Sequence record: PV577657
Source of the DNA: Escherichia phage vB_EcoS_MM-1
DNA length: 64,000 nt
Direction: 5' to 3' (one strand)
The position numbers were made by a program, and so were the translations under genes. The notes beneath the pieces are model-generated. The model made no database searches. It was not told the origin of the DNA and saw only the letters and a program-made list of their open reading frames with translations. Shown one piece after another: positions 7,543 to 64,000 of the stretch (the first letter of the stretch is position 1; each line of letters begins with the position of its first letter).

Positions 7543-8247
7543 ATGGCTGGTTCTCGTAGAAAGAAACATATCCATGAAATCCCGGATGAAGTCTTTAAAA
7601 AGGTTATAGAGCATCTGGAGAACGGTGGTACTAAGAAAGCAGCATGTGAAATGCTCGGCGTATCATCCAATCCAACTATGGAAAGGATGATTGAAGAATG
7701 GCAAGACCGCCAGATTCAAGTTGCCGAAATGAAGAAAAAGAAACGTGGCACACTCATTGAAGGCATTGAGTTAGCTAACGTTATTGAGCAGTATTTATCT
7801 GGTGATTCTTTTGAAGAAATTGCCGATCGTAATTACCGCTCTGTAGCAATGGTTAAATCTGTTCTGGAACGATATGGTGCTCTACTTCGTTTGAACGATA
7901 TTGTAGATCCATTGAATCCTCCAATTATTCCTGATGATGCTGTAGCAGAAGAATTTGCAGTTGGTGAGCTTGTTTGGGTTCCTGGATACCAGTGTATCGG
8001 TGAAATCAAAAAAGCAATGGATAATCCTGTTGGTTGCTACCGTGTATGGCTTCTATCCGAAGGCAAACAACAGAACGTTCATTATATGAATTACGAGCTG
8101 GCTTCTGTTAAACATCTGGAAAAGTTAGGGGTAGACGTAAAATCTCTAGGGTATAAGTGGACTCGTGAAGAAATTATTACGTTGATTAACGAAGCTGTTA
8201 AGGCTGCTCTGAAACTTGATAAAGAAAAAGGAAAACGCCGTGAGTAA
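7543..8247 (+). CDS. helix-turn-helix DNA-binding protein
   Basis: RBS GAGAGGAG; N-terminal GGTKKAACEMLGVS HTH-like segment. Confidence 0.55.
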   Translation: MAGSRRKKHIHEIPDEVFKKVIEHLENGGTKKAACEMLGVSSNPTMERMIEEWQDRQIQVAEMKKKKRGTLIEGIELANVIEQYLSGDSFEEIADRNYRSVAMVKSVLERYGALLRLNDIVDPLNPPIIPDDAVAEEFAVGELVWVPGYQCIGEIKKAMDNPVGCYRVWLLSEGKQQNVHYMNYELASVKHLEKLGVDVKSLGYKWTREEIITLINEAVKAALKLDKEKGKRRE

Positions 8248-8491
8248 GCTAACAGATTTGCTTAAGGATGGTGAAACAAAAACCGTGTATCGTAGAAGCT
8301 GGGATAATGACAATAATGGCTTAGTGTTACTAACTTTAGACGCTGACTCAGATGTAGCTACCCAACATACCTGGGTAGCTGGTAATTATCCCTATAGTGA
8401 GGTTGTTACGTTAACAGTATGCGAAGCTATTGCCGACGATTGGGAGATTGCCAGCATTGATGATATGCTTGCTGTTGGCCTGGTGGAGTAA
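8216..8491 (+). CDS. hypothetical protein (start may be GTG at 8240)
   Basis: ORF track; overlaps upstream gene. Confidence 0.5.
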   Translation: MIKKKENAVSKLTDLLKDGETKTVYRRSWDNDNNGLVLLTLDADSDVATQHTWVAGNYPYSEVVTLTVCEAIADDWEIASIDDMLAVGLVE

Positions 8492-8508
8492 CTACTGAAA
8501 AATTTCAG

Positions 8509-8537
8509 TTGCTTAATCCTATAATTCTTGATATAAT
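8509..8537 (+). promoter_or_regulatory. sigma70-type early promoter
   Basis: TTGCTT, 17 nt, TATAAT. Confidence 0.6.
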
Positions 8538-8594
8538 ATTCTCATAGTTTGAAAGAACTATTCTGTTTAATTCTTAATTAAGGAAATATAAAAT

Positions 8595-9005
8595 ATGACT
8601 ACTCCAACTCAGTGGACTGATGAACTGTTCGAAAAAATGTCTTCCGAATACGTTGCTCGTATGGAGCAATTCCCAGAGGATGAACGTCCGGGTGTTAGCA
8701 TGGAAATTGTTAGCGAAATTGCCCAGGAAAATGGTGTAACTCCGAACGGTTTTCGTATGAAGCTGACTAAAGCAGGTTTGTATATCAAGAAAGCTGCTGG
8801 CTCTGCTTCTAAATCTAGCGCATCTACTGGAGAAAAGGCTTCTGGTGGTTCTCGTACCTCCAAAGCTCAAGCTCATGCCGATCTTCGTTCAGCATTCTCT
8901 GATGCTGGCTTAGCACCGGATTTTCTGGATGATGCAATTATCGATAAACTGACCGGTAAAGCGGCTGCTCATCTGGCAGAAGCAATCCGAGCTATCACTA
9001 AGTAA
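8595..9005 (+). CDS. hypothetical protein with HeH/SAP-like motif; codon usage suggests high expression
   Basis: Motif EIAQENGVTPNGFRMKLTKAG resembles the repeats in 12003..12770; GCT/CTG-rich codon usage. Confidence 0.55.
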   Translation: MTTPTQWTDELFEKMSSEYVARMEQFPEDERPGVSMEIVSEIAQENGVTPNGFRMKLTKAGLYIKKAAGSASKSSASTGEKASGGSRTSKAQAHADLRSAFSDAGLAPDFLDDAIIDKLTGKAAAHLAEAIRAITK

Positions 9006-9041
9006 TTTTTAGATAAATCCACCAACAAAAGGAACACAGTT

Positions 9042-9338
9042 ATGACCAAAGCTGAAATTATCGCACAATGTGAAAAATTTGGTGAGTTTTATCTTCATTA
9101 CGAGAAACTTCGTCAGAAAGGAACCACGTATCTTCAGGGTACGATGGAATTTGATCCAGCCCAAGATAAATATCTAGCTGAGCGTATTAAACGTGAACGT
9201 ATTCGTAAAGCGAAAGATGATGAGATCCTTGTCTTCTCTCGTACTAATGATAGCTTCCGTTTTATTCCTGTCGAAAAAGTCCGTCGTGTGACTAGCCTCC
9301 AATCAGAGTTAGATCGTGCTTCTCCAGTAGGCCGATAA
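9042..9338 (+). CDS. hypothetical protein
   Basis: ORF track; terminator immediately downstream. Confidence 0.55.
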   Translation: MTKAEIIAQCEKFGEFYLHYEKLRQKGTTYLQGTMEFDPAQDKYLAERIKRERIRKAKDDEILVFSRTNDSFRFIPVEKVRRVTSLQSELDRASPVGR

Positions 9339-9348
9339 GAAACCAATT

Positions 9349-9371
9349 AGCCCCTATATGGGGCTTTTTGT
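9349..9371 (+). terminator. rho-independent terminator
   Basis: AGCCCC-tata-GGGGCT followed by TTTTT. Confidence 0.7.
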
Positions 9372-9388
9372 GTATTTGGGATATGTAA

Positions 9389-9697
9389 ATGAGCGAACAG
9401 GTAAATCAAAACTATGAAGGACACGTTGATGACCAGTCCATCATACTTTGGGAGAAGGAGGGAGAACAAGTAAGATTAACAGTATCTGAATTTCGTGGGA
9501 ATCTATACATGGGTATTCGTTACTGGCTTCTTGATATTAATGATGAGTGGTTTCCAACGAAATCTGGCTTCTCTTTTCCTTACACCCTAGAAACAACATC
9601 ACAGCTTTTCTATGCGTTTACACAGATTCTTAGCGAATCTGAGGTTTTACATGAAGTACAGAAACGAGCTGAAGAACTCAAAGCCAAGAATGCCTAG
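9389..9697 (+). CDS. hypothetical protein
   Basis: ORF track. Confidence 0.55.
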   Translation: MSEQVNQNYEGHVDDQSIILWEKEGEQVRLTVSEFRGNLYMGIRYWLLDINDEWFPTKSGFSFPYTLETTSQLFYAFTQILSESEVLHEVQKRAEELKAKNA

Positions 9698-59618: not shown

Positions 59619-60398
59619 ATGAGGCTTTATAAACCTGATAATGCCACCGTTTTAAAAGGTGCATTGCGCAACCTGCTGGATGGTAGCAAGTCAACCAGCA
59701 TTAAACATTTTATTAACAAGATTGAAACTATTCATCAAAACTTTTTTGATGATTATGACGCTTATGATATGGATAGTTTTCTACCCTTATATAGACAAGG
59801 GGCAACGCTAGTTTTATATAATCGGGATTGCCATATCTTTACAGGCAGGGGAGCGGGGCCGGATACCGATTTTATTGTTGCGCAGGGTAATAATATTGTT
59901 GCGTATCATAGCAATTCAGGCCGTCAATCATTTAATATAAATAGTTTTGAGCTTATTGGACTTGATCTGATAAATGGACTTTCTAGCATTGAGGGATTTT
60001 TAGATGTTATCTGGAAGTATTTACCCGCTGGATGGCATAAGCCGGATAACGACGGATCTCAATATACCGGTATAATGGCTTTTGATGGCGACGGTAATTT
60101 TTTGTTACCACGGGAGCTATACCCATATATTTATGATGGGGATATAGAAAGCGCTGGTTTTTCTTTCTGGAAAGATGAAGATCAGATTATTGACAGCGTA
60201 GAAAACCATGCTGTAAATTCTAACACTCAAAGCGTTAACACTCAAACTACTGAAAACAAAGGAAAAAACACTATGACCAAGATTGCTAACATCGTTGCCG
60301 CTAATAAATCCGCCGTTGTAAATGCTGCAAAACTGGAAGCGGGTAAAATTGCACTGACTCAAATCACGAAAGTAGCGGCTAAAAAGCACCGTTCATGA
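59619..60398 (+). CDS. hypothetical protein
   Basis: Strong RBS GAGGGAGG; 259 aa. Confidence 0.6.
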   Translation: MRLYKPDNATVLKGALRNLLDGSKSTSIKHFINKIETIHQNFFDDYDAYDMDSFLPLYRQGATLVLYNRDCHIFTGRGAGPDTDFIVAQGNNIVAYHSNSGRQSFNINSFELIGLDLINGLSSIEGFLDVIWKYLPAGWHKPDNDGSQYTGIMAFDGDGNFLLPRELYPYIYDGDIESAGFSFWKDEDQIIDSVENHAVNSNTQSVNTQTTENKGKNTMTKIANIVAANKSAVVNAAKLEAGKIALTQITKVAAKKHRS

Positions 60399-60628
60399 TT
60401 AAAGGCTATATTGATACGCCGATTGGTCGAGTAGTGATTGCTAACCTGCTAAGTGTAGCGGTTGACCAGTACGCACCGACTAACCAGAAAGCGAAAGCGG
60501 TAGCAGGGGCGGCTATGGAAGCGGCAATGCTGGAAATGGTGCAAAGTTTTAACATCGCTGAAATGATTGATGAAATGGTGAAAGGTATTGATATTTCTAC
60601 TTTTACCACTAGCACCGAAATCGAGTAA
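60395..60628 (+). CDS. hypothetical protein
   Basis: ATGA overlap with previous gene; terminator hairpin AGTGGGGA-ttatt-TCCCCACT after stop. Confidence 0.5.
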   Translation: MIKGYIDTPIGRVVIANLLSVAVDQYAPTNQKAKAVAGAAMEAAMLEMVQSFNIAEMIDEMVKGIDISTFTTSTEIE

Positions 60629-60693: not shown

Positions 60694-61188
60694 ATGGCTG
60701 AGGAAAAATACGGCTTCTCGCTAGGAGAAGTGAGCACGGCTAAACATGATATGATCATTTTAGTCGATTGTCATACTGGCTATTGCGGAGAAGGGAACAC
60801 CGAAGAATACTTTGTTCCTGCTGGTACGGATCTGGACGCTTTCGCTCATGAAATGGCTATTGATAATGCTTCTCGTTTTGGTAGCGATGGCTATGAAGAC
60901 GAAGAAACTGGCGAATGGTATGAAAATGAAAACGTATATGCAAGCCTTTATCATTATCAGCTAAGTAAATCCGGCACATATGTAAACGGCGGCGATCCTA
61001 TTAATTCCGTCATGAAATTAATTATTAAATATGGTGGCGTCGAGATAATTGATAACAAAGCGGTAATATACGCAAACCGATTAAAACAGCTTGTTTATAT
61101 TCCTGATAGTACCCGATGGGATGAATACGCTGTTTTGCATGACGAATTGAAACGATGTTTCAATATTGAATCCCTGCAAGTAGTCTAA
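60694..61188 (+). CDS. hypothetical acidic protein
   Basis: Strong RBS AGGAGG; 164 aa. Confidence 0.6.
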   Translation: MAEEKYGFSLGEVSTAKHDMIILVDCHTGYCGEGNTEEYFVPAGTDLDAFAHEMAIDNASRFGSDGYEDEETGEWYENENVYASLYHYQLSKSGTYVNGGDPINSVMKLIIKYGGVEIIDNKAVIYANRLKQLVYIPDSTRWDEYAVLHDELKRCFNIESLQVV

Positions 61189-61293
61189 TGTAAAGTTTTG
61201 TAAAGGTCGCCTTTTATGGTGGCCTTTTTTGTTATAATGCTTTTACACCAAAACGGTGGATTGAAAATTTTCCCAAAAATTTGGAGGCTTAAA

Positions 61294-61524
61294 ATGGTTG
61301 CTTATTCTTCTGCTAGTCATCTGTTTACCGCGCAAGGCTGGGTATCTAATCGTGCTGTCATCTATGAAATGGTGCAGGAGTTCGGCATTGCTAAAACTTA
61401 TAATACCATTCAGGAACTATATAACGCCGATAAAATCGATCAGCAAACGGCTGGCTTTTTACTGGATACCCTGAAAGCTGAACATTGCACTAAAAAACAA
61501 GCCGCTAAAATTGTTTTAATGTAA
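61294..61524 (+). CDS. hypothetical protein
   Basis: ATG 61294 with GGAGG RBS (track start 61216); terminator CGGGGCG-ttacttt-CGCCCCG downstream. Confidence 0.5.
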   Translation: MVAYSSASHLFTAQGWVSNRAVIYEMVQEFGIAKTYNTIQELYNADKIDQQTAGFLLDTLKAEHCTKKQAAKIVLM

Positions 61525-61573
61525 TTAATAACGGGGCGTTACTTTCGCCCCGATAACTAGGAGGCTATCACAA

Positions 61574-61723
61574 ATGGTTATTTTTCGATCTATTTTAGCG
61601 GGTATCTTGGGCGCTATTTTATCGTTATTTGCGATAGCTTTCGGCGTTCACGCTGTTATTATTGGCGCTGGCATTGCTGCGTTTTCTTATCTGCTGGGCT
61701 GCATGACTAGTAAAGGAGAATAA
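61574..61723 (+). CDS. small two-helix hydrophobic protein (49 aa)
   Basis: RBS AGGAGG; Gly/Ala-rich TM segments; below ORF-track length cutoff. Confidence 0.45.
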   Translation: MVIFRSILAGILGAILSLFAIAFGVHAVIIGAGIAAFSYLLGCMTSKGE

Positions 61724-61725
61724 AA

Positions 61726-61938
61726 ATGATCCGCAACGTTTCCCTTGCACGTTCGAAAGGCTTTAAGCTGGTGGATGTTAACACGTTCGAGTGGGAAGAT
61801 TGTAAAATCGAATATGTAGCACGTAACAAAAATGCCTTTCGTGTTACCGAGAAAAAATTTGATAAGCGCGGCAACGTGATAGCTGAAACAGTTAAACATT
61901 TTGCCACCTTTTACGCTGCTTTCCGTGGGGTATTATGA
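61726..61938 (+). CDS. hypothetical protein
   Basis: RBS AAAGGAGAA. Confidence 0.5.
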   Translation: MIRNVSLARSKGFKLVDVNTFEWEDCKIEYVARNKNAFRVTEKKFDKRGNVIAETVKHFATFYAAFRGVL

Positions 61939-62057
61939 TTCAGCAAATTAAAACGGCTTTTCGTTTTTGGGGCGTCCTGCCTTCAATTGGTTTTATTCTG
62001 ATAATTATTAGTCAGCTAATGATCATCGGCGGAACTATTTGGGAGCTATGCAAATGA
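61935..62057 (+). CDS. small hydrophobic protein (40 aa)
   Basis: ATGA overlaps at both ends. Confidence 0.35.
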   Translation: MIQQIKTAFRFWGVLPSIGFILIIISQLMIIGGTIWELCK

Positions 62058-62398
62058 TAATTTATGAAGGCAATCGCTTTGTTGCTAATTGCCGTCCGGC
62101 ATTATTAGCAAACTATTTAAACCAGCTTTCCCCAGCTTATAAGGGCGTTATTAATATTTATGAGGGAAAGGCGCATTATAAAATTAATGCGGTCGTTGCC
62201 CGTGAACTAGCATTTCAATTTTTGACCTTTGCATCTTGTGACGTTCAGGTTATGGGTGAGGCATTAATCGCGGAAAATGAAGAGGATTTTATTAATATTT
62301 TCCGTAAGGTATGCACTGAGCGCTTGATAATGAAAGGCGCGTATATTCAATCAACTGCGGAAAGTATTGAAACAGCATTTCGAAAGGTGGCGCAATGA
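62054..62398 (+). CDS. hypothetical protein
   Basis: ATG 62054 (track start TTG 62039); 114 aa. Confidence 0.5.
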   Translation: MIIYEGNRFVANCRPALLANYLNQLSPAYKGVINIYEGKAHYKINAVVARELAFQFLTFASCDVQVMGEALIAENEEDFINIFRKVCTERLIMKGAYIQSTAESIETAFRKVAQ

Positions 62399-62498
62399 GA
62401 TTATATATTTTCGTTGGTAATGTTAAGGCAGCTAATGATTCCGCTGGTGGCGACAACGTTCGCCACCATTGGCAAAAATATATTTACTAGGAGTTATT

Positions 62499-62606
62499 AT
62501 GTCTGGTTTAATGTTTACCTTATTAGTAGTTTATAGCATAATTACGGCAGGAATAGTAACTTATGTTACTAGTAAAATTTGGCCGGGAATATATGGTAAT
62601 TTTTAA
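62499..62606 (+). CDS. small hydrophobic protein (35 aa)
   Basis: RBS AGGAG; single TM helix. Confidence 0.35.
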   Translation: MSGLMFTLLVVYSIITAGIVTYVTSKIWPGIYGNF

Positions 62607-62621
62607 TAACGGAGCGTTATT

Positions 62622-62825
62622 ATGAGCAATAAAATTATTGTAACCAAAATCAGTACAATGGTTGATGTTTTTTACGTGCCAGATACGCCGGAGAATCGGC
62701 AAGCGGTCGAGCGGGGCGAATATGATAAAGTGATTTATGATCACGATGGTTATTATCAGTATTTGGTGGATTCCTACGGGGAGGAGGAGAAGATCACGCA
62801 TCGACTACCGGAGGAGGGTTTATGA
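62622..62825 (+). CDS. hypothetical acidic protein
   Basis: RBS ACGGAG; 67 aa. Confidence 0.5.
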   Translation: MSNKIIVTKISTMVDVFYVPDTPENRQAVERGEYDKVIYDHDGYYQYLVDSYGEEEKITHRLPEEGL

Positions 62826-62980
62826 AACGATGGTTTAATCACTGGTACAAGCGGTTTTTAGTACGCCGTCGCAAGTCTAGGCATCAAGATGAGTGGCGGG
62901 AGTGGGCAAAGCGTAACGGTTGCCCGCTACTATAATAATCACGGGGCGCAACTATCGGGAAGTGCCCCCAATTCTCAAAT

Positions 62981-63001
62981 GAGAATCATTCTCATTTGAC
63001 C
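62981..63001. repeat. perfect 21-bp palindrome
   Basis: AAATGAGAAT-C-ATTCTCATTT; partial copies recur at the ends of the 67-bp repeats. Confidence 0.8.
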
Positions 63002-63192
63002 GCGCCCGCGATGGTTAGCCTGCTAATGATTAGGGTGTTACGTGTCGCCTTGTGTGATCGTTAGCGAGCTAACTAATTTTCAAGCCTCCTCCAATTTTGC
63101 CCTTGTTTTAGTATCTCCACCAAAATTAAACGCGTTAGAATGCGATCTAGGACGTTTTAACGCTATATTAGAATTATTCACTGCGTAGGAAT

Positions 63193-63212
63193 ACTGTATA
63201 TTTATACAGTAG
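63193..63212. promoter_or_regulatory. LexA (SOS) box-like palindrome
   Basis: TACTGTATATTTATACAGTA. Confidence 0.6.
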
Positions 63213-63219
63213 GATAAGC

Positions 63220-63302
63220 TGTGGATAAGTCTGTTAATAACACCCCAAAATGGCTAGGATTCTGTCAAGTCAAATCGTGCTGTTAATAAGTCTGTGGATA
63301 AC
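63220..63302. promoter_or_regulatory. two consensus DnaA boxes within an inverted motif pair
   Basis: TGTGGATAA at 63220-63228 and 63294-63302, each linked to GTCTGTTAATAA. Confidence 0.5.
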
Positions 63303-63317
63303 TTAAATAATAGTGTT

Positions 63318-63488
63318 TCTCACTTCCGTTCTTAAATACGAATCACTATCATTTGCGTTCCACTTTCTAAATGAGAATCATTCTGCTTTTTAAAGGAGAA
63401 TCGTTTCACTTCCTGAATAATTCTCACTTCCATTCTTAAATGCGAATTATTATCATTCTCATTCCGCTTTTTAAATGAGAATCATTCT
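63318..63488. repeat. two about 67-bp direct repeats, each ending in the AAATGAGAATCATTCT half-palindrome
   Basis: Units at 63318-63384 and 63422-63488 are near-identical. Confidence 0.75.
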
Positions 63489-63511
63489 CATTATCATTCG
63501 CATTCAGGCGA

Positions 63512-63529
63512 GCAGGGCAATTGCCCTGC
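63512..63529. repeat. perfect 18-bp palindrome
   Basis: GCAGGGCAA-TTGCCCTGC. Confidence 0.7.
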
Positions 63530-63535
63530 GCTTTT

Positions 63536-63758
63536 GTGCAAATCCGACATTGCTCCACGGGTGTTACGTGCGGGCGTGTATGTGCGAATCCGACAATTTT
63601 TGGTAGTGTGCAAATCCGACCCGAAAAATTTTTATAGTGTGCAAATCCGACAATGAATTTTCCTAAAAACTCCAGCAATCACGAACTGCGTTCGAATCCT
63701 GTGGGGTATGTGCAAATCCGACACGGTTTTTCTAGGATTAAGATGTGCGAATCCGACA
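63536..63758 (+). repeat. array of six direct copies of GTGC(A/G)AATCCGAC(A), irregularly spaced, each followed by a T-rich tract
   Basis: Copies at 63536, 63582, 63608, 63638, 63710 and 63745. Confidence 0.8.
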
Positions 63759-64000
63759 AGATTTTTGTGACTTCGATTGGAGGGTGTGTGATTGTGTGAG
63801 TTTGGGGAGAAGTTGAGAGAGCGAGAAAAATTTGAGGGAACTGCGGGAGGGGCGCATGTTTGGTGCGGAGCACCTGATTTGCGGGGATTTTGGGGAAGAG
63901 TTGAGAAGATTTGGGTTAATTTGAGATTAGTGCAGAAAAAGTAAAATTTTATTAGCTAAATGGAGCAAAATAGCTTGACAAGTGAAAATTCTTGTGGCTC

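What the first reader, a model, noticed from the sequence alone, without database searches (positions are those of the whole stretch)
61574..62935. String of tiny hydrophobic ORFs coupled by ATGA overlaps in the plus-strand block
Several ORFs of 30-50 aa with good RBSs and transmembrane-like helices (61574..61723, 61935..62057, 62499..62606) are interleaved with 70-115 aa genes and joined by overlapping stop/start codons. Most fall below the ORF-track cutoff. Such micro-proteins are typical of host-takeover or membrane-acting functions and are usually unannotated.
Basis: seen in the sequence. Interest (0 to 1): 0.4.

Follow-up and report, generated by a model that had tools for sequence, protein, structure and literature searches.

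The report
Swappable micro-membrane-protein genes in T5-like phage
The tiny overlapping ORFs are real, conserved genes in the first-injected ("pre-early") operon of a T5-like coliphage; three encode 35-49-residue membrane peptides, one of them a relative of the toxic T5 protein gp013, and related phages swap such mini-genes in and out like cassettes.

Summary
Observation confirmed. Window 61200-63000 is 100% identical to the left terminal repeat of Escherichia phage vB_EcoS_MM-2 (Tequintavirus). That places it in the plus-strand pre-early / first-step-transfer operon, just upstream of the injection stop signal. Eight ORFs tile 61574-62935, with four ATGA overlaps. Three are strongly hydrophobic: B 49 aa, D 40 aa, G 35 aa. 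Two other micro-ORFs are not: F (31 aa) and I (37 aa, net charge +9).

All five are intact in every relative that carries them and show frame-specific purifying selection (pN/pS 0.2-0.33, against about 0.4-2.1 in shifted frames). B belongs to the T5 gp013 family, which is published as toxic and lysis-inducing on expression and dispensable for growth. D and G match no PHROG, Pfam or NCBIfam family and occur only in T5-like phages.

New here: the positions between genes 014/015 and 015/017 are slots. They hold alternative micro-ORF cassettes, about half of them membrane peptides. I found 28 gene orders in 45 loci, and every locus keeps 1-4 hydrophobic micro-ORFs. Junctions reuse Shine-Dalgarno/ATGA linkers and show microhomology deletion scars.

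Function beyond gp013 is inferred: accessory membrane-acting host-takeover factors. This is a new member of a known kind, of modest interest.

The parts
61202..61227 (+). Terminator-like hairpin after the upstream 164-aa ORF. It corresponds to the annotated T5 terminator downstream of T5.011.
   Evidence: 10-bp stem followed by a T-run. (-15.1 kcal/mol, z -4.6). (stem conserved in 4 phages, loop variable). (T5 terminator at the homologous place).
61230..61238 (+). TGTTATAAT, an extended -10-like element directly after the hairpin. It may be an internal promoter for the 012-to-I block (inferred).
   Evidence: Invariant in four diverged phages. No good -35 element. Not annotated in T5.
61294..61524 (+). 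Gene A, 76 aa, homolog of T5.012 (soluble).
   Evidence: phrog_5145, E 3e-49. pN/pS 0.20.
61574..61723 (+). Micro-ORF B, 49 aa, very hydrophobic. Short allele of the T5 gp013 family.
   Evidence: phrog_5607, E 8e-32. 65% identity to T5.013. Found in 42 of 45 loci, 30 nucleotide alleles, all intact. pN/pS 0.20 against 0.93 and 2.1 in shifted frames. Excess of third-position changes, p 2e-4. 26 protein clusters, all from T5-like phages. The 59-61-aa alleles carry a 10-11-residue insert at the mid-point.
61726..61938 (+). Gene C, 70 aa, homolog of T5.014.
   Evidence: phrog_4227, E 3.5e-49. pN/pS 0.08.
61935..62057 (+). Micro-ORF D, 40 aa, one transmembrane-like helix. Cassette in the 014|015 slot; absent from T5. 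ATGA-coupled at both ends.
   Evidence: No PHROG, Pfam or NCBIfam hit. 13 loci, 8 alleles, 60-100% identity, all intact. pN/pS 0.33 against 1.3 and 1.3 in shifted frames. Only 10 clusters among 5.8e9 proteins, all 40-41 aa; the named ones are from T5-like phages.
62054..62398 (+). Gene E, 114 aa, homolog of T5.015, the Ung-dependent AP-site nickase family.
   Evidence: phrog_4379, E 2e-63. pN/pS 0.08. Pfam PF26847 Phage_T5_AP_Endonuclease hits the 115-aa ortholog in L045. Mahata 2021, PMC8201957.
62395..62490 (+). Micro-ORF F, 31 aa, not hydrophobic, ATGA-coupled to E. It contains a conserved 8-bp hairpin at 62443-62464.
   Evidence: phrog_22819, E 2e-25. 146 phage records, always full length, 64-100% identity. 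pN/pS 0.26 against 1.06 and 0.70 in shifted frames. Hairpin.
62499..62606 (+). Micro-ORF G, 35 aa, one transmembrane-like helix. A rare cassette in the 015|017 slot.
   Evidence: Only 12 phage records. No family hit. One relative among 1.84e9 representatives (P0011, 35 aa, 51% identity). That relative sits at the same place in a divergent T5-like contig. dN/dS against it is 0.30 in frame, and 1.23 and 0.74 in shifted frames.
62604..62624 (+). Linker TAATAACGGAGCGTTATTATG: stop, small hairpin with the Shine-Dalgarno motif in its loop, then start. The same linker type precedes many cassettes in relatives, and a variant follows gene A at 61526-61546.
   Evidence: 2 matches in the window, 0 expected. 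(recurs at cassette junctions in relatives). (-5.1 kcal/mol).
62622..62825 (+). Gene H, 67 aa, acidic, homolog of T5.017.
   Evidence: phrog_6973, E 5e-42. pN/pS 0.16. It is 67 aa when I follows and 64 aa when I is absent.
62822..62935 (+). Micro-ORF I, 37 aa, Arg/Trp-rich, net charge +9. Last ORF of the operon, ATGA-coupled to H.
   Evidence: 62 phage records. 8 alleles, all intact. pN/pS 0.23 against 1.55 and 1.40 in shifted frames. Present but unannotated in T5 at 9154-9264, under the 'iss' feature.
62943..62968 (+). GC-rich hairpin at the end of the operon, at the place of the annotated T5 terminator. In this phage it has no clear U-tract.
   Evidence: -17.6 kcal/mol for the 50-nt stretch, which includes a second small hairpin; T5 has a canonical terminator at the same place..

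Best explanation
The block is the right-hand, plus-strand part of the pre-early (first-step-transfer) operon of a T5-like phage.

**Expression.** After the first ~8% of the genome enters the cell, host RNA polymerase transcribes genes 012 to I as one message. Transcription starts from the 011 promoter and possibly also from an extended -10 element at 61230. Ribosomes pass from gene to gene through ATGA overlaps or linkers of at most 15 nt that carry a Shine-Dalgarno motif. The micro-ORFs are therefore translated along with their larger neighbours.

**Products.** B, D and G are 35-49-residue hydrophobic peptides. They most likely insert into the inner membrane within the first minutes of infection. 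There they would act on membrane integrity or on membrane-embedded host proteins.

**Role.** They are accessory host-takeover factors: individually dispensable, costly when over-expressed, and differing from phage to phage. The genes are cassettes. Each is a self-contained unit that usually starts with ATGA, so its start also supplies the stop codon of whatever lies upstream. Cassettes are gained, lost and reordered at two slots (014|015 and 015|017). This happens through short repeated Shine-Dalgarno/start-stop linkers and microhomology.

**Shown:** identity of the region, ORF anatomy, coding-type conservation, cassette variability and deletion scars.
**From the literature:** pre-early timing; toxicity and lysis phenotype of gp013; dispensability of hegG-017.
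**Inferred:** translation and membrane insertion of D and G, their targets, and the recombination mechanism.
For: - **Region identity.** 100% identity to PV577658.1 positions 7607-9407, inside its left terminal repeat. Synteny with T5.012-T5.017, followed by the injection stop signal. The iss-type repeats and DnaA boxes lie at 62968-63766.
- **Anatomy.** ORFs, overlaps, ribosome-binding sites and hydropathy.
- **Coding selection.** Every micro-ORF is intact in every locus that has it. In-frame pN/pS is 0.20-0.33, against 0.44-2.1 in shifted frames. Third-position excess is significant for B, D, F and I. G against its 51%-identical relative gives dN/dS 0.30 in frame and keeps the 35-aa length and both end motifs.
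- **Function of the B family.** T5 gene 013 is toxic and gives lysed, non-refractile cells. It is the only toxic pre-early product with transmembrane domains. Genes hegG-017 can be deleted.
- **Cassette behaviour.** 28 gene orders in 45 loci. The 014|015 slot is empty or holds fam7, D, fam18, fam7+D or D+fam7. The 015|017 slot holds none, F, G, F+G, fam8, fam8+F+G, fam12+F, fam22 with or without F, and others. 94% of locus pairs at 94-97% core identity differ in accessory content. Each of 46 loci keeps 1-4 hydrophobic micro-ORFs.
- **Junction evidence.** Shared linkers recur at cassette boundaries. F is deleted between its own TTATATATTT repeats in L004 and L039. L017 carries a T5.016 scar. 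L005 has a duplicated E/F junction.
Against: - There is no direct evidence of translation (Ribo-seq, mass spectrometry) for D, F, G or I in any phage.
- Within Tequintavirus, the few substitutions in G are not biased to third positions (6/3/6). The case for G rests mainly on one distant homolog.
- Mahata et al. 2021 saw no toxicity for T5.013.
- The whole right arm can be deleted from T5 with only smaller plaques. Any function is therefore non-essential on laboratory hosts.
- AlphaFold2 models the 49-aa B allele as one long helix, not the two-transmembrane hairpin predicted for T5 gp013.
- In Bas33 RNA-seq the 126-nt ORF between 014 and 015 has a value of 1.6, against about 500 for its neighbours. 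I attribute this to read assignment for a short feature flanked by overlapping genes, but I did not verify that.
- The repeated linkers could reflect convergent selection for ribosome binding rather than a role in recombination.
Confidence: 0.7

Rival explanations
1. The micro-ORFs are translated, but only the act of translation matters. They would be relay or spacer ORFs that keep ribosomes on the polycistronic mRNA. This would protect it from Rho or RNases and deliver ribosomes to C, E and H. The peptides themselves would have no target.
For: Tight ATGA coupling and conserved linkers. Micro-ORFs are under weaker constraint (pN/pS 0.2-0.33) than C and E (0.08). Slots can be empty, with C joined to E or E joined to H directly, so no single cassette is needed.
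Against: pN/pS is clearly below 1 and is specific to the reading frame. Hydrophobic cores, end motifs and exact lengths are kept across 51-68% identity. Hydrophobic peptides are over-represented among cassettes, at about 9 of 17 families; a pure spacer role would not require this. gp013 has a specific phenotype.
Confidence: 0.1
2. The hydrophobic micro-proteins are specific competition or counter-defence modules. They would work by superinfection exclusion (blocking DNA entry of a second phage at the inner membrane) or by inhibiting membrane-bound abortive-infection effectors, rather than as general membrane perturbants.
For: Rapid cassette turnover, alternative families in the same slot and restriction to one phage subfamily are typical of arms-race loci. 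Expression before the rest of the genome enters is the right time for such functions. [quoted passage not shown]
Against: No sequence similarity to any known exclusion or anti-defence protein. No host-range or exclusion data. The gp013 phenotype is lysis-like toxicity, not a specific block.
Confidence: 0.15
3. Some or all of the micro-ORFs are chance ORFs in intergenic DNA that is conserved for other reasons (RNA structure, protein-binding sites), and no peptide is made.
For: The ORFs are very short. F contains a conserved GC-rich hairpin. G shows no third-position bias among close relatives. The Bas33 126-nt ORF has a very low count.
Against: 91% tiling of the block, never reached in 2000 shuffles. 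No disrupted copy of any micro-ORF in 45 loci. Frame-specific pN/pS. F keeps its full length down to 64% identity in 146 records. G keeps length and motifs at 65% nucleotide identity.
Confidence: 0.05

Closest known systems
Bacteriophage T5 pre-early protein gp013 (locus T5.013, YP_006841.1; PHROG 5607)
   Same: B is a homolog (phrog_5607 E 8e-32; 65% identity). It occupies the same position between 012 and 014 in the same operon and has the same two hydrophobic segments with conserved small-residue motifs. gp013 is toxic, gives lysis-like cells and is dispensable.
   Different: The window's allele is 49 aa, not 59. It lacks the 10-11-residue polar loop (IQDSYCGLVNTKP) between the two segments. 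AlphaFold2 gives a single 46-residue helix. The phenotype of the short allele is untested. D and G are unrelated in sequence to gp013.
Hyperplastic regions of T4-type phages, shuffled through PeSL motifs (Arbiol et al. 2010, PMC2839356; Comeau et al. 2014, PMC4122927)
   Same: Clusters of small, mostly orphan early genes lie between conserved genes. They are gained, lost and replaced as modules at short conserved regulatory motifs that flank each module.
   Different: Here the repeated junction is a translational signal of roughly 10-20 nt (Shine-Dalgarno motif plus ATGA, or TAATAACGGRGCGTTATTATG). It is not a promoter plus stem-loop transcription cassette. The modules are single micro-ORFs inside one operon. 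Recombination at the linkers is inferred, not demonstrated.
Small hydrophobic bacterial toxins and phage membrane-lesion peptides (type I toxins such as Hok/TisB/Ldr; holin/pinholin-like peptides)
   Same: Size of 30-50 aa, one or two transmembrane helices, a short charged tail, and toxicity on over-expression for the gp013 relative.
   Different: No sequence similarity. No antisense-RNA locus architecture. Not in the lysis cassette. Expressed at the very start of infection rather than at the end.
Inner-membrane superinfection-exclusion proteins of phages (e.g. T4 Imm and Sp) - recalled from general knowledge, not tested here
   Same: Small membrane proteins made early, non-essential, variable between relatives.
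   Different: No homology and no exclusion data. The known T5 exclusion factor Llp is a lipoprotein encoded elsewhere in the genome.

Membership tests
T5 gp013 family (PHROG 5607) - applies to B only | Significant sequence similarity over the full length | tested here: met
   phrog_5607 E 8.1e-32, residues 1-49 of 49. 65% identity to T5.013. Alignment with 19 relatives.
T5 gp013 family (PHROG 5607) - applies to B only | Position between the 012 and 014 homologs in the plus-strand pre-early operon | tested here: met
T5 gp013 family (PHROG 5607) - applies to B only | Two transmembrane segments | tested here: inconclusive
   There are 28 overlapping 19-residue windows with Kyte-Doolittle mean of at least 1.6, spanning about 40 residues. 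The longer alleles have their insert exactly in the middle. AlphaFold2 nevertheless gives one continuous helix for the 49-aa form.
T5 gp013 family (PHROG 5607) - applies to B only | Toxicity and lysis-like phenotype on expression | not testable with these tools
   Reported for T5 013 by Annor et al. 2026. Not seen by Mahata et al. 2021.
Pre-early (first-step-transfer) genes of Tequintavirus | Encoded in the terminal repeat, upstream of the injection stop signal | tested here: met
   Inside the left terminal repeat of PV577658.1. Syntenic with T5.012-017 and the iss. DnaA boxes and iss-type repeats at 62968-63766.
Pre-early (first-step-transfer) genes of Tequintavirus | Expressed before second-step transfer | not testable with these tools
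   Literature only. In Bas33, transcription is restricted to this region when infection is blocked after first-step transfer (PMC13250531).
Genuine protein-coding micro-ORFs (B, D, F, G, I) | Frame-specific purifying selection and no disrupted copies | tested here: met
   Weakest for G among close relatives; supported for G by the distant homolog.
Genuine protein-coding micro-ORFs (B, D, F, G, I) | Ribosome occupancy or detected peptide | not testable with these tools
   I found no Ribo-seq or peptide data for these ORFs in the literature searched.
PeSL-type mobile regulatory cassettes (T4-type hyperplastic regions) | Variable small genes flanked by a conserved early-promoter plus stem-loop motif | tested here: not met
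   Junctions are Shine-Dalgarno/start-stop linkers without promoter hexamers. Only a weak 8-bp hairpin of -5.1 kcal/mol is present. The block works like a hyperplastic region but is not a PeSL system.
Type I toxin / holin-like peptides | Sequence or profile similarity to a described family | tested here: not met
   No significant Pfam, NCBIfam or PDB-sequence hit for B, D or G.

The most novel reading that the evidence does not exclude
The 014-017 stretch of the T5-type pre-early operon is a plug-and-play array for small inner-membrane effectors. Every cassette is a self-contained ATGA-initiated micro-gene. The shared Shine-Dalgarno/start-stop linkers would act as the recombination joints that let co-infecting phages exchange cassettes. 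Selection would keep at least one membrane peptide in every phage because each neutralises a different membrane-embedded host defence or excludes competitors during the vulnerable pause between first- and second-step DNA transfer.
Probability: 0.25. Interest if true: 0.55.

Novelty: new member of a known kind. Interest (0 to 1): 0.3.

Why it matters
T5 pre-early genes decide the outcome of infection in the first minutes, yet most of the 17 annotated ones have no known function. This analysis makes four points:

- **The annotated set is incomplete.** F and I are conserved, selected ORFs that are present but unannotated in T5 RefSeq.
- **gp013 is one of many.** It is one of at least nine alternative families of 31-60-residue hydrophobic peptides that occupy this operon.
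- **Every phage examined keeps at least one of them.** This hints at a shared, redundant membrane-directed role that single-gene deletions in T5 would miss.
- **The cassette slots offer a natural experiment.** Near-isogenic phages that differ only in D, F, G or fam8 could be used to find the selective agent.

The finding does not reveal a new kind of system.

Tried and rejected
- **Family searches gave no function.** Pfam, NCBIfam and PHROG scans of all micro-ORFs and of five other cassette families returned only 'unknown function' PHROGs. PDB sequence searches for B, D and G found nothing meaningful.
- **No relatives outside T5-like phages.** The D profile against 5.8e9 proteins gave 10 clusters, the named ones all from T5-like phages. 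B gave 26 clusters of the same kind. G against 1.84e9 representatives gave a single relative, also T5-like. A bacterial or type-I-toxin origin is therefore not supported. G could not be run through the search for homologous proteins because the minimum length is 40 aa.
- **No paralogs** of any cassette elsewhere in the 64-kb window.
- **Masked search for D.** tblastn of D against the phage collection was crippled by low-complexity masking; only identical copies passed. Its count is a lower bound.
- **AlphaFold2 of B** did not settle hairpin versus single helix. I did not run a fold search on a lone helix because it would be meaningless.
- **Bas33 supplement.** RNA-seq values exist, but the short ORF's low value is probably a counting artefact, and the proteomics table is not held.
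- **Literature gap.** Davison 2015 (PMC4743489), the main review of this region, is not in the library. I cannot exclude that some cassette variation was described there.
- **ATGA at 60395.** I considered it a fifth gene coupling. It is the by-product of a frameshift in the T5.011 homolog.
Full report
**What the region is**

Window 61200-63000 is 100% identical to Escherichia phage vB_EcoS_MM-2 (PV577658.1) positions 7607-9407. It matches 415 phage records, essentially all of them T5-like (Demerecviridae, Markadamsvirinae). In MM-2 the stretch lies inside the annotated left terminal repeat.

In T5 itself (NC_005859) the homologous stretch holds genes T5.012 to T5.017. These form the right-hand, plus-strand part of the first-step-transfer (FST) DNA, and the annotated injection stop signal follows directly. 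The window shows the same downstream landmarks. Two consensus DnaA boxes lie at 63220 and 63293. Families of 24-30-nt direct and inverted repeats span 62968-63766.

The finding therefore sits in the pre-early operon of a T5-like phage. This is the DNA that enters the cell first and is expressed before the rest of the genome follows (Annor et al. 2026, bioRxiv 10.64898/2026.04.02.716235; Skutel et al. 2023, PMC10644984).

**Checking the observation**

| ORF | Coordinates | Length | Identity |
|---|---|---|---|
| A | 61294-61524 | 76 aa | T5.012 homolog |
| B | 61574-61723 | 49 aa | T5 gp013 family |
| C | 61726-61938 | 70 aa | T5.014 homolog |
| D | 61935-62057 | 40 aa | no family |
| E | 62054-62398 | 114 aa | T5.015 homolog |
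| F | 62395-62490 | 31 aa | phrog_22819 |
| G | 62499-62606 | 35 aa | no family |
| H | 62622-62825 | 67 aa | T5.017 homolog |
| I | 62822-62935 | 37 aa | no family |

ATGA overlaps join C/D, D/E, E/F and H/I. The other gaps are 2, 8 and 15 nt, and each start has a Shine-Dalgarno-like motif.

B, D and G are strongly hydrophobic, with maximum 19-residue Kyte-Doolittle means of 2.54, 2.33 and 2.05. F is not hydrophobic. I is extremely basic, with net charge +9.

ORFs of at least 30 aa tile 91% of the block, against 23 +/- 12% in shuffles; none of 2000 shuffles reached the observed value. Of 16 ATGA couplings in the whole window, 4 are in this 1.36 kb.

**Are they genes?**

I collected 45 homologous loci: 36 from IMG/VR, 8 from GenBank records and one metagenomic contig. 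Every micro-ORF is intact, with a start codon and full length, in every locus that carries it.

| ORF | Loci | Nucleotide alleles | pN/pS in frame | pN/pS in shifted frames |
|---|---|---|---|---|
| B | 42 | 30 | 0.20 | 0.93, 2.14 |
| D | 13 | 8 | 0.33 | 1.32, 1.32 |
| F | 21 | 14 | 0.26 | 1.06, 0.70 |
| I | 13 | 8 | 0.23 | 1.55, 1.40 |
| G | 8 | 6 | 0.25 | 0.49, 0.44 |

These are pooled Nei-Gojobori values. For comparison, the accepted neighbour genes give 0.08 (C), 0.08 (E), 0.16 (H) and 0.20 (A). Variable sites are enriched at third positions for B (p 2e-4), D (0.01), F (0.018) and I (0.038), but not for G.

The case for G comes from a distant relative. A search of 1.84 billion representative proteins found exactly one hit, a 35-aa protein of 51% identity. 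It lies in the same slot of a divergent T5-like contig. It keeps the N-terminal MSGL.FTL and C-terminal K.WP.IYG.F motifs. Against it, dN/dS is 0.30 in frame and 1.23 and 0.74 in shifted frames.

F keeps its full length down to 64% identity in 146 phage records. I occurs in 62 records and G in 12. I conclude that all five are protein-coding genes under moderate purifying selection. No ribosome-profiling or peptide evidence exists for them.

**What is known about them**

B matches PHROG 5607 (E 8e-32) and is 65% identical to T5 gp013. Annor et al. 2026 cloned all 17 annotated T5 pre-early genes. They found 013 to be one of seven that are toxic. It is the only toxic one with predicted transmembrane domains, and it produces shrunken, non-refractile cells without DNA staining, consistent with lysis. 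They could also delete hegG through 017 and still obtain viable phage with smaller plaques. Mahata et al. 2021 did not see toxicity for T5.013 under their conditions.

The window's allele is the short form. Alleles of 59-61 aa carry a 10-11-residue polar insert exactly between the two hydrophobic halves. That placement fits a helical hairpin whose loop is dispensable. AlphaFold2 nevertheless models the 49-aa form as a single 46-residue helix at pLDDT 82, so its topology is open.

D and G have no PHROG, Pfam, NCBIfam or PDB relatives. The D family comprises only 10 clusters among 5.8 billion proteins, all of 40-41 aa, and the named ones are from T5-like phages. The B family comprises 26 clusters of the same kind.

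**The cassette architecture**

Gene order between 012 and the injection stop signal is highly variable: 28 orders in 45 loci.

The 014|015 junction is a slot. It can be empty, with 4 nt between the genes as in T5. Otherwise it holds one of the following:
- fam7, 41-47 aa, two short hydrophobic segments (phrog_19184);
- D;
- fam18, 35 aa, hydrophobic;
- fam7 followed by D;
- D followed by fam7.

The 015|017 junction is a second slot. It can be empty, with E joined to H by ATGA. Otherwise it holds F, G, F+G, fam8 (52 aa, two hydrophobic segments; phrog_35622), fam8+F+G, fam12 (53 aa)+F, or fam22 (45 aa, C-terminal hydrophobic helix) with or without F. It can also hold soluble 64-87-aa proteins, including T5.016.

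I is itself optional. H is 67 aa and ATGA-coupled when I follows, and 64 aa when it does not. In one phage I follows E directly.

About nine of the seventeen accessory families are hydrophobic peptides of at most 60 aa. Each of the 46 loci retains between one and four of them. Turnover is fast: 94% of locus pairs whose 014+015 genes are 94-97% identical differ in accessory content.

**Junction anatomy**

Nearly all cassettes start with ATGA, so a newly placed cassette supplies the TGA stop of whatever lies upstream. Where there is a spacer, it is one of a few recurrent linkers, such as TACTAGGAGTTATTATG or TAATAACGGRGCGTTATTATG. The latter occurs at 62604 and, in variant form, at 61526 in the window. 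It can form a small hairpin that presents the Shine-Dalgarno motif in its loop (-5.1 kcal/mol).

Scars of past events are visible:
- In L004 and L039, F has been deleted between its own TTATATATTT repeats.
- L017 keeps the last 15 nt of T5.016.
- L005 has a duplicated E/F junction after an inserted 71-aa gene.

These scars show microhomology-mediated loss and junction-carrying gain. Whether the linkers are the actual recombination substrates, or are merely what selection for translational coupling leaves behind, cannot be decided from sequence.

**Most likely mechanism**

The evidence above establishes the following:
- the block is a pre-early operon;
- it is bounded by a conserved terminator-like hairpin at 61202-61227 and a hairpin at 62943-62968, the latter at the position of the T5 terminator;
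- its ORFs are translationally coupled by design;
- the micro-ORFs evolve as coding sequence.

From the literature, gp013-type peptides damage cells when over-expressed, and the arm is dispensable in the laboratory.

I infer that B, D and G insert into the inner membrane in the first minutes of infection. There they would perturb membrane integrity or bind membrane proteins. I also infer that their diversity reflects host- or competitor-specific selection. T5 arrested after first-step transfer turns cells into phase-light ghosts (PMC13407855). That fits a membrane-damaging pre-early product, but the link to these peptides is my inference.

Rivals are given in their own section of this report: translation-only relay ORFs, specific exclusion or anti-defence modules, and non-coding DNA.

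**Comparison with known systems**

B is a member of the gp013 family by sequence and by position. The two-transmembrane feature is inconclusive for this allele, and the phenotype cannot be tested here.

The block as a whole behaves like the hyperplastic regions of T4-type phages. There, small early genes are shuffled at conserved PeSL motifs (PMC2839356, PMC4122927). It is not a PeSL system, because the junctions are translational signals rather than promoter plus stem-loop units.

The peptides resemble type I toxins and holin-like peptides in size and hydrophobicity only.

**Verdict**

- One of the three highlighted ORFs belongs to a known, recently studied family.
- The other two are orphan cassette genes, already annotated as hypothetical proteins in the identical GenBank record.
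- The added value lies in three points: the evidence that they are under selection, the two extra conserved ORFs missing from T5 RefSeq, and the cassette-slot picture in which every phage keeps at least one membrane peptide.
- This is a new member, with some new descriptive detail, of a known kind. Interest 0.3.

Noticed in passing
window 59619-60628 (junction near 60381-60398): The homolog of the toxic pre-early gene T5.011 (336 aa) is split into 259-aa and 77-aa ORFs. The cause is a -1 frameshift in a homopolymer: the window has A5 in GGCTAAAAAGCACC where slur09 has A6. The ATGA at 60395 is a by-product of this frameshift. The same split is annotated in MM-2. I did not resolve whether it is a mutation, a sequencing error or programmed slippage.
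   Followed up: partly
window 61726-61938 and 62054-62398; NC_005859 T5.014/T5.015: RefSeq and PHROG 4227 put the label 'endonuclease nicking abasic sites generated by Ung' on the 70-aa T5.014 family. The papers call the nickase 015, and Pfam PF26847 (Phage_T5_AP_Endonuclease) hits the 115-aa 015 homolog. This is probably an off-by-one annotation error that has been propagated to many phage records.
   Followed up: partly
NC_005859 8641-8733 and 9154-9264 (L002 3613-3705, 4126-4236); window 62395-62490 and 62822-62935: F (31 aa) and I (37 aa) are intact in T5 and under purifying selection, but they are not annotated in T5 RefSeq. I lies under the 'injection stop signal' feature. T5 may therefore have 19 rather than 17 pre-early ORFs.
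   Followed up: yes
NC_005859 8681-8938 (T5.016); window 62435-62491: The annotated N-terminus of T5.016 (MIPLVAITFATIGKNIFTRVI) overlaps F in the +1 frame, where pN/pS is about 1. The likelier start is the ATG after the TACTAGGGTTATT linker, which would give a 64-aa protein.
   Followed up: partly
window 62443-62464: There is a perfect 8-bp GC-rich inverted repeat, GGTGGCGA-N6-TCGCCACC, inside F. Most alleles retain it, some through G-U pairs, and it is weaker in the most divergent allele. It is not followed by a U-tract. It could be an RNA stability or processing element, or a protein-binding palindrome.
   Followed up: partly
window 61202-61238: The terminator-like hairpin is followed at once by TGTTATAAT (an extended -10 consensus), which is invariant in four diverged phages. 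This may be an internal promoter for the 012-I block. T5 RefSeq annotates only the terminator.
   Followed up: partly
window 62968-63766: The injection-stop-signal region contains five copies of a ~30-nt AAATGAGAATCATTCTCATT-type repeat (direct and inverted), six copies of GTGCAAATCCGAC, and two consensus DnaA boxes at 63220 and 63293. This is as described for T5 relatives by Davison 2020.
   Followed up: partly
window 60694-61188: A 164-aa ORF lies between the 011 homolog and the terminator. It is annotated as phrog_6741 in a relative and is absent from T5. It is another accessory gene of the operon.
   Followed up: no
GenBank MG065692.1, MG065660.1, OR847365.1: T5-like pre-early sequences are deposited as 'Campylobacter phage C13' (flagged UNVERIFIED), 'Campylobacter phage C8' and 'Listeria phage LM 4-11-1'. 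The host labels are probably wrong, or the samples contaminated.
   Followed up: no
PMC13250531 Dataset S1 (Bas33 genes 0170-0175): In Bas33 RNA-seq the 126-nt ORF between the 014 and 015 homologs (bas33_0173) has a value of 1.6, while its neighbours have about 430-590. This is probably because reads spanning a short feature flanked by overlapping genes are discarded as ambiguous. It is a caution for anyone using such tables to judge micro-ORF expression.
   Followed up: no
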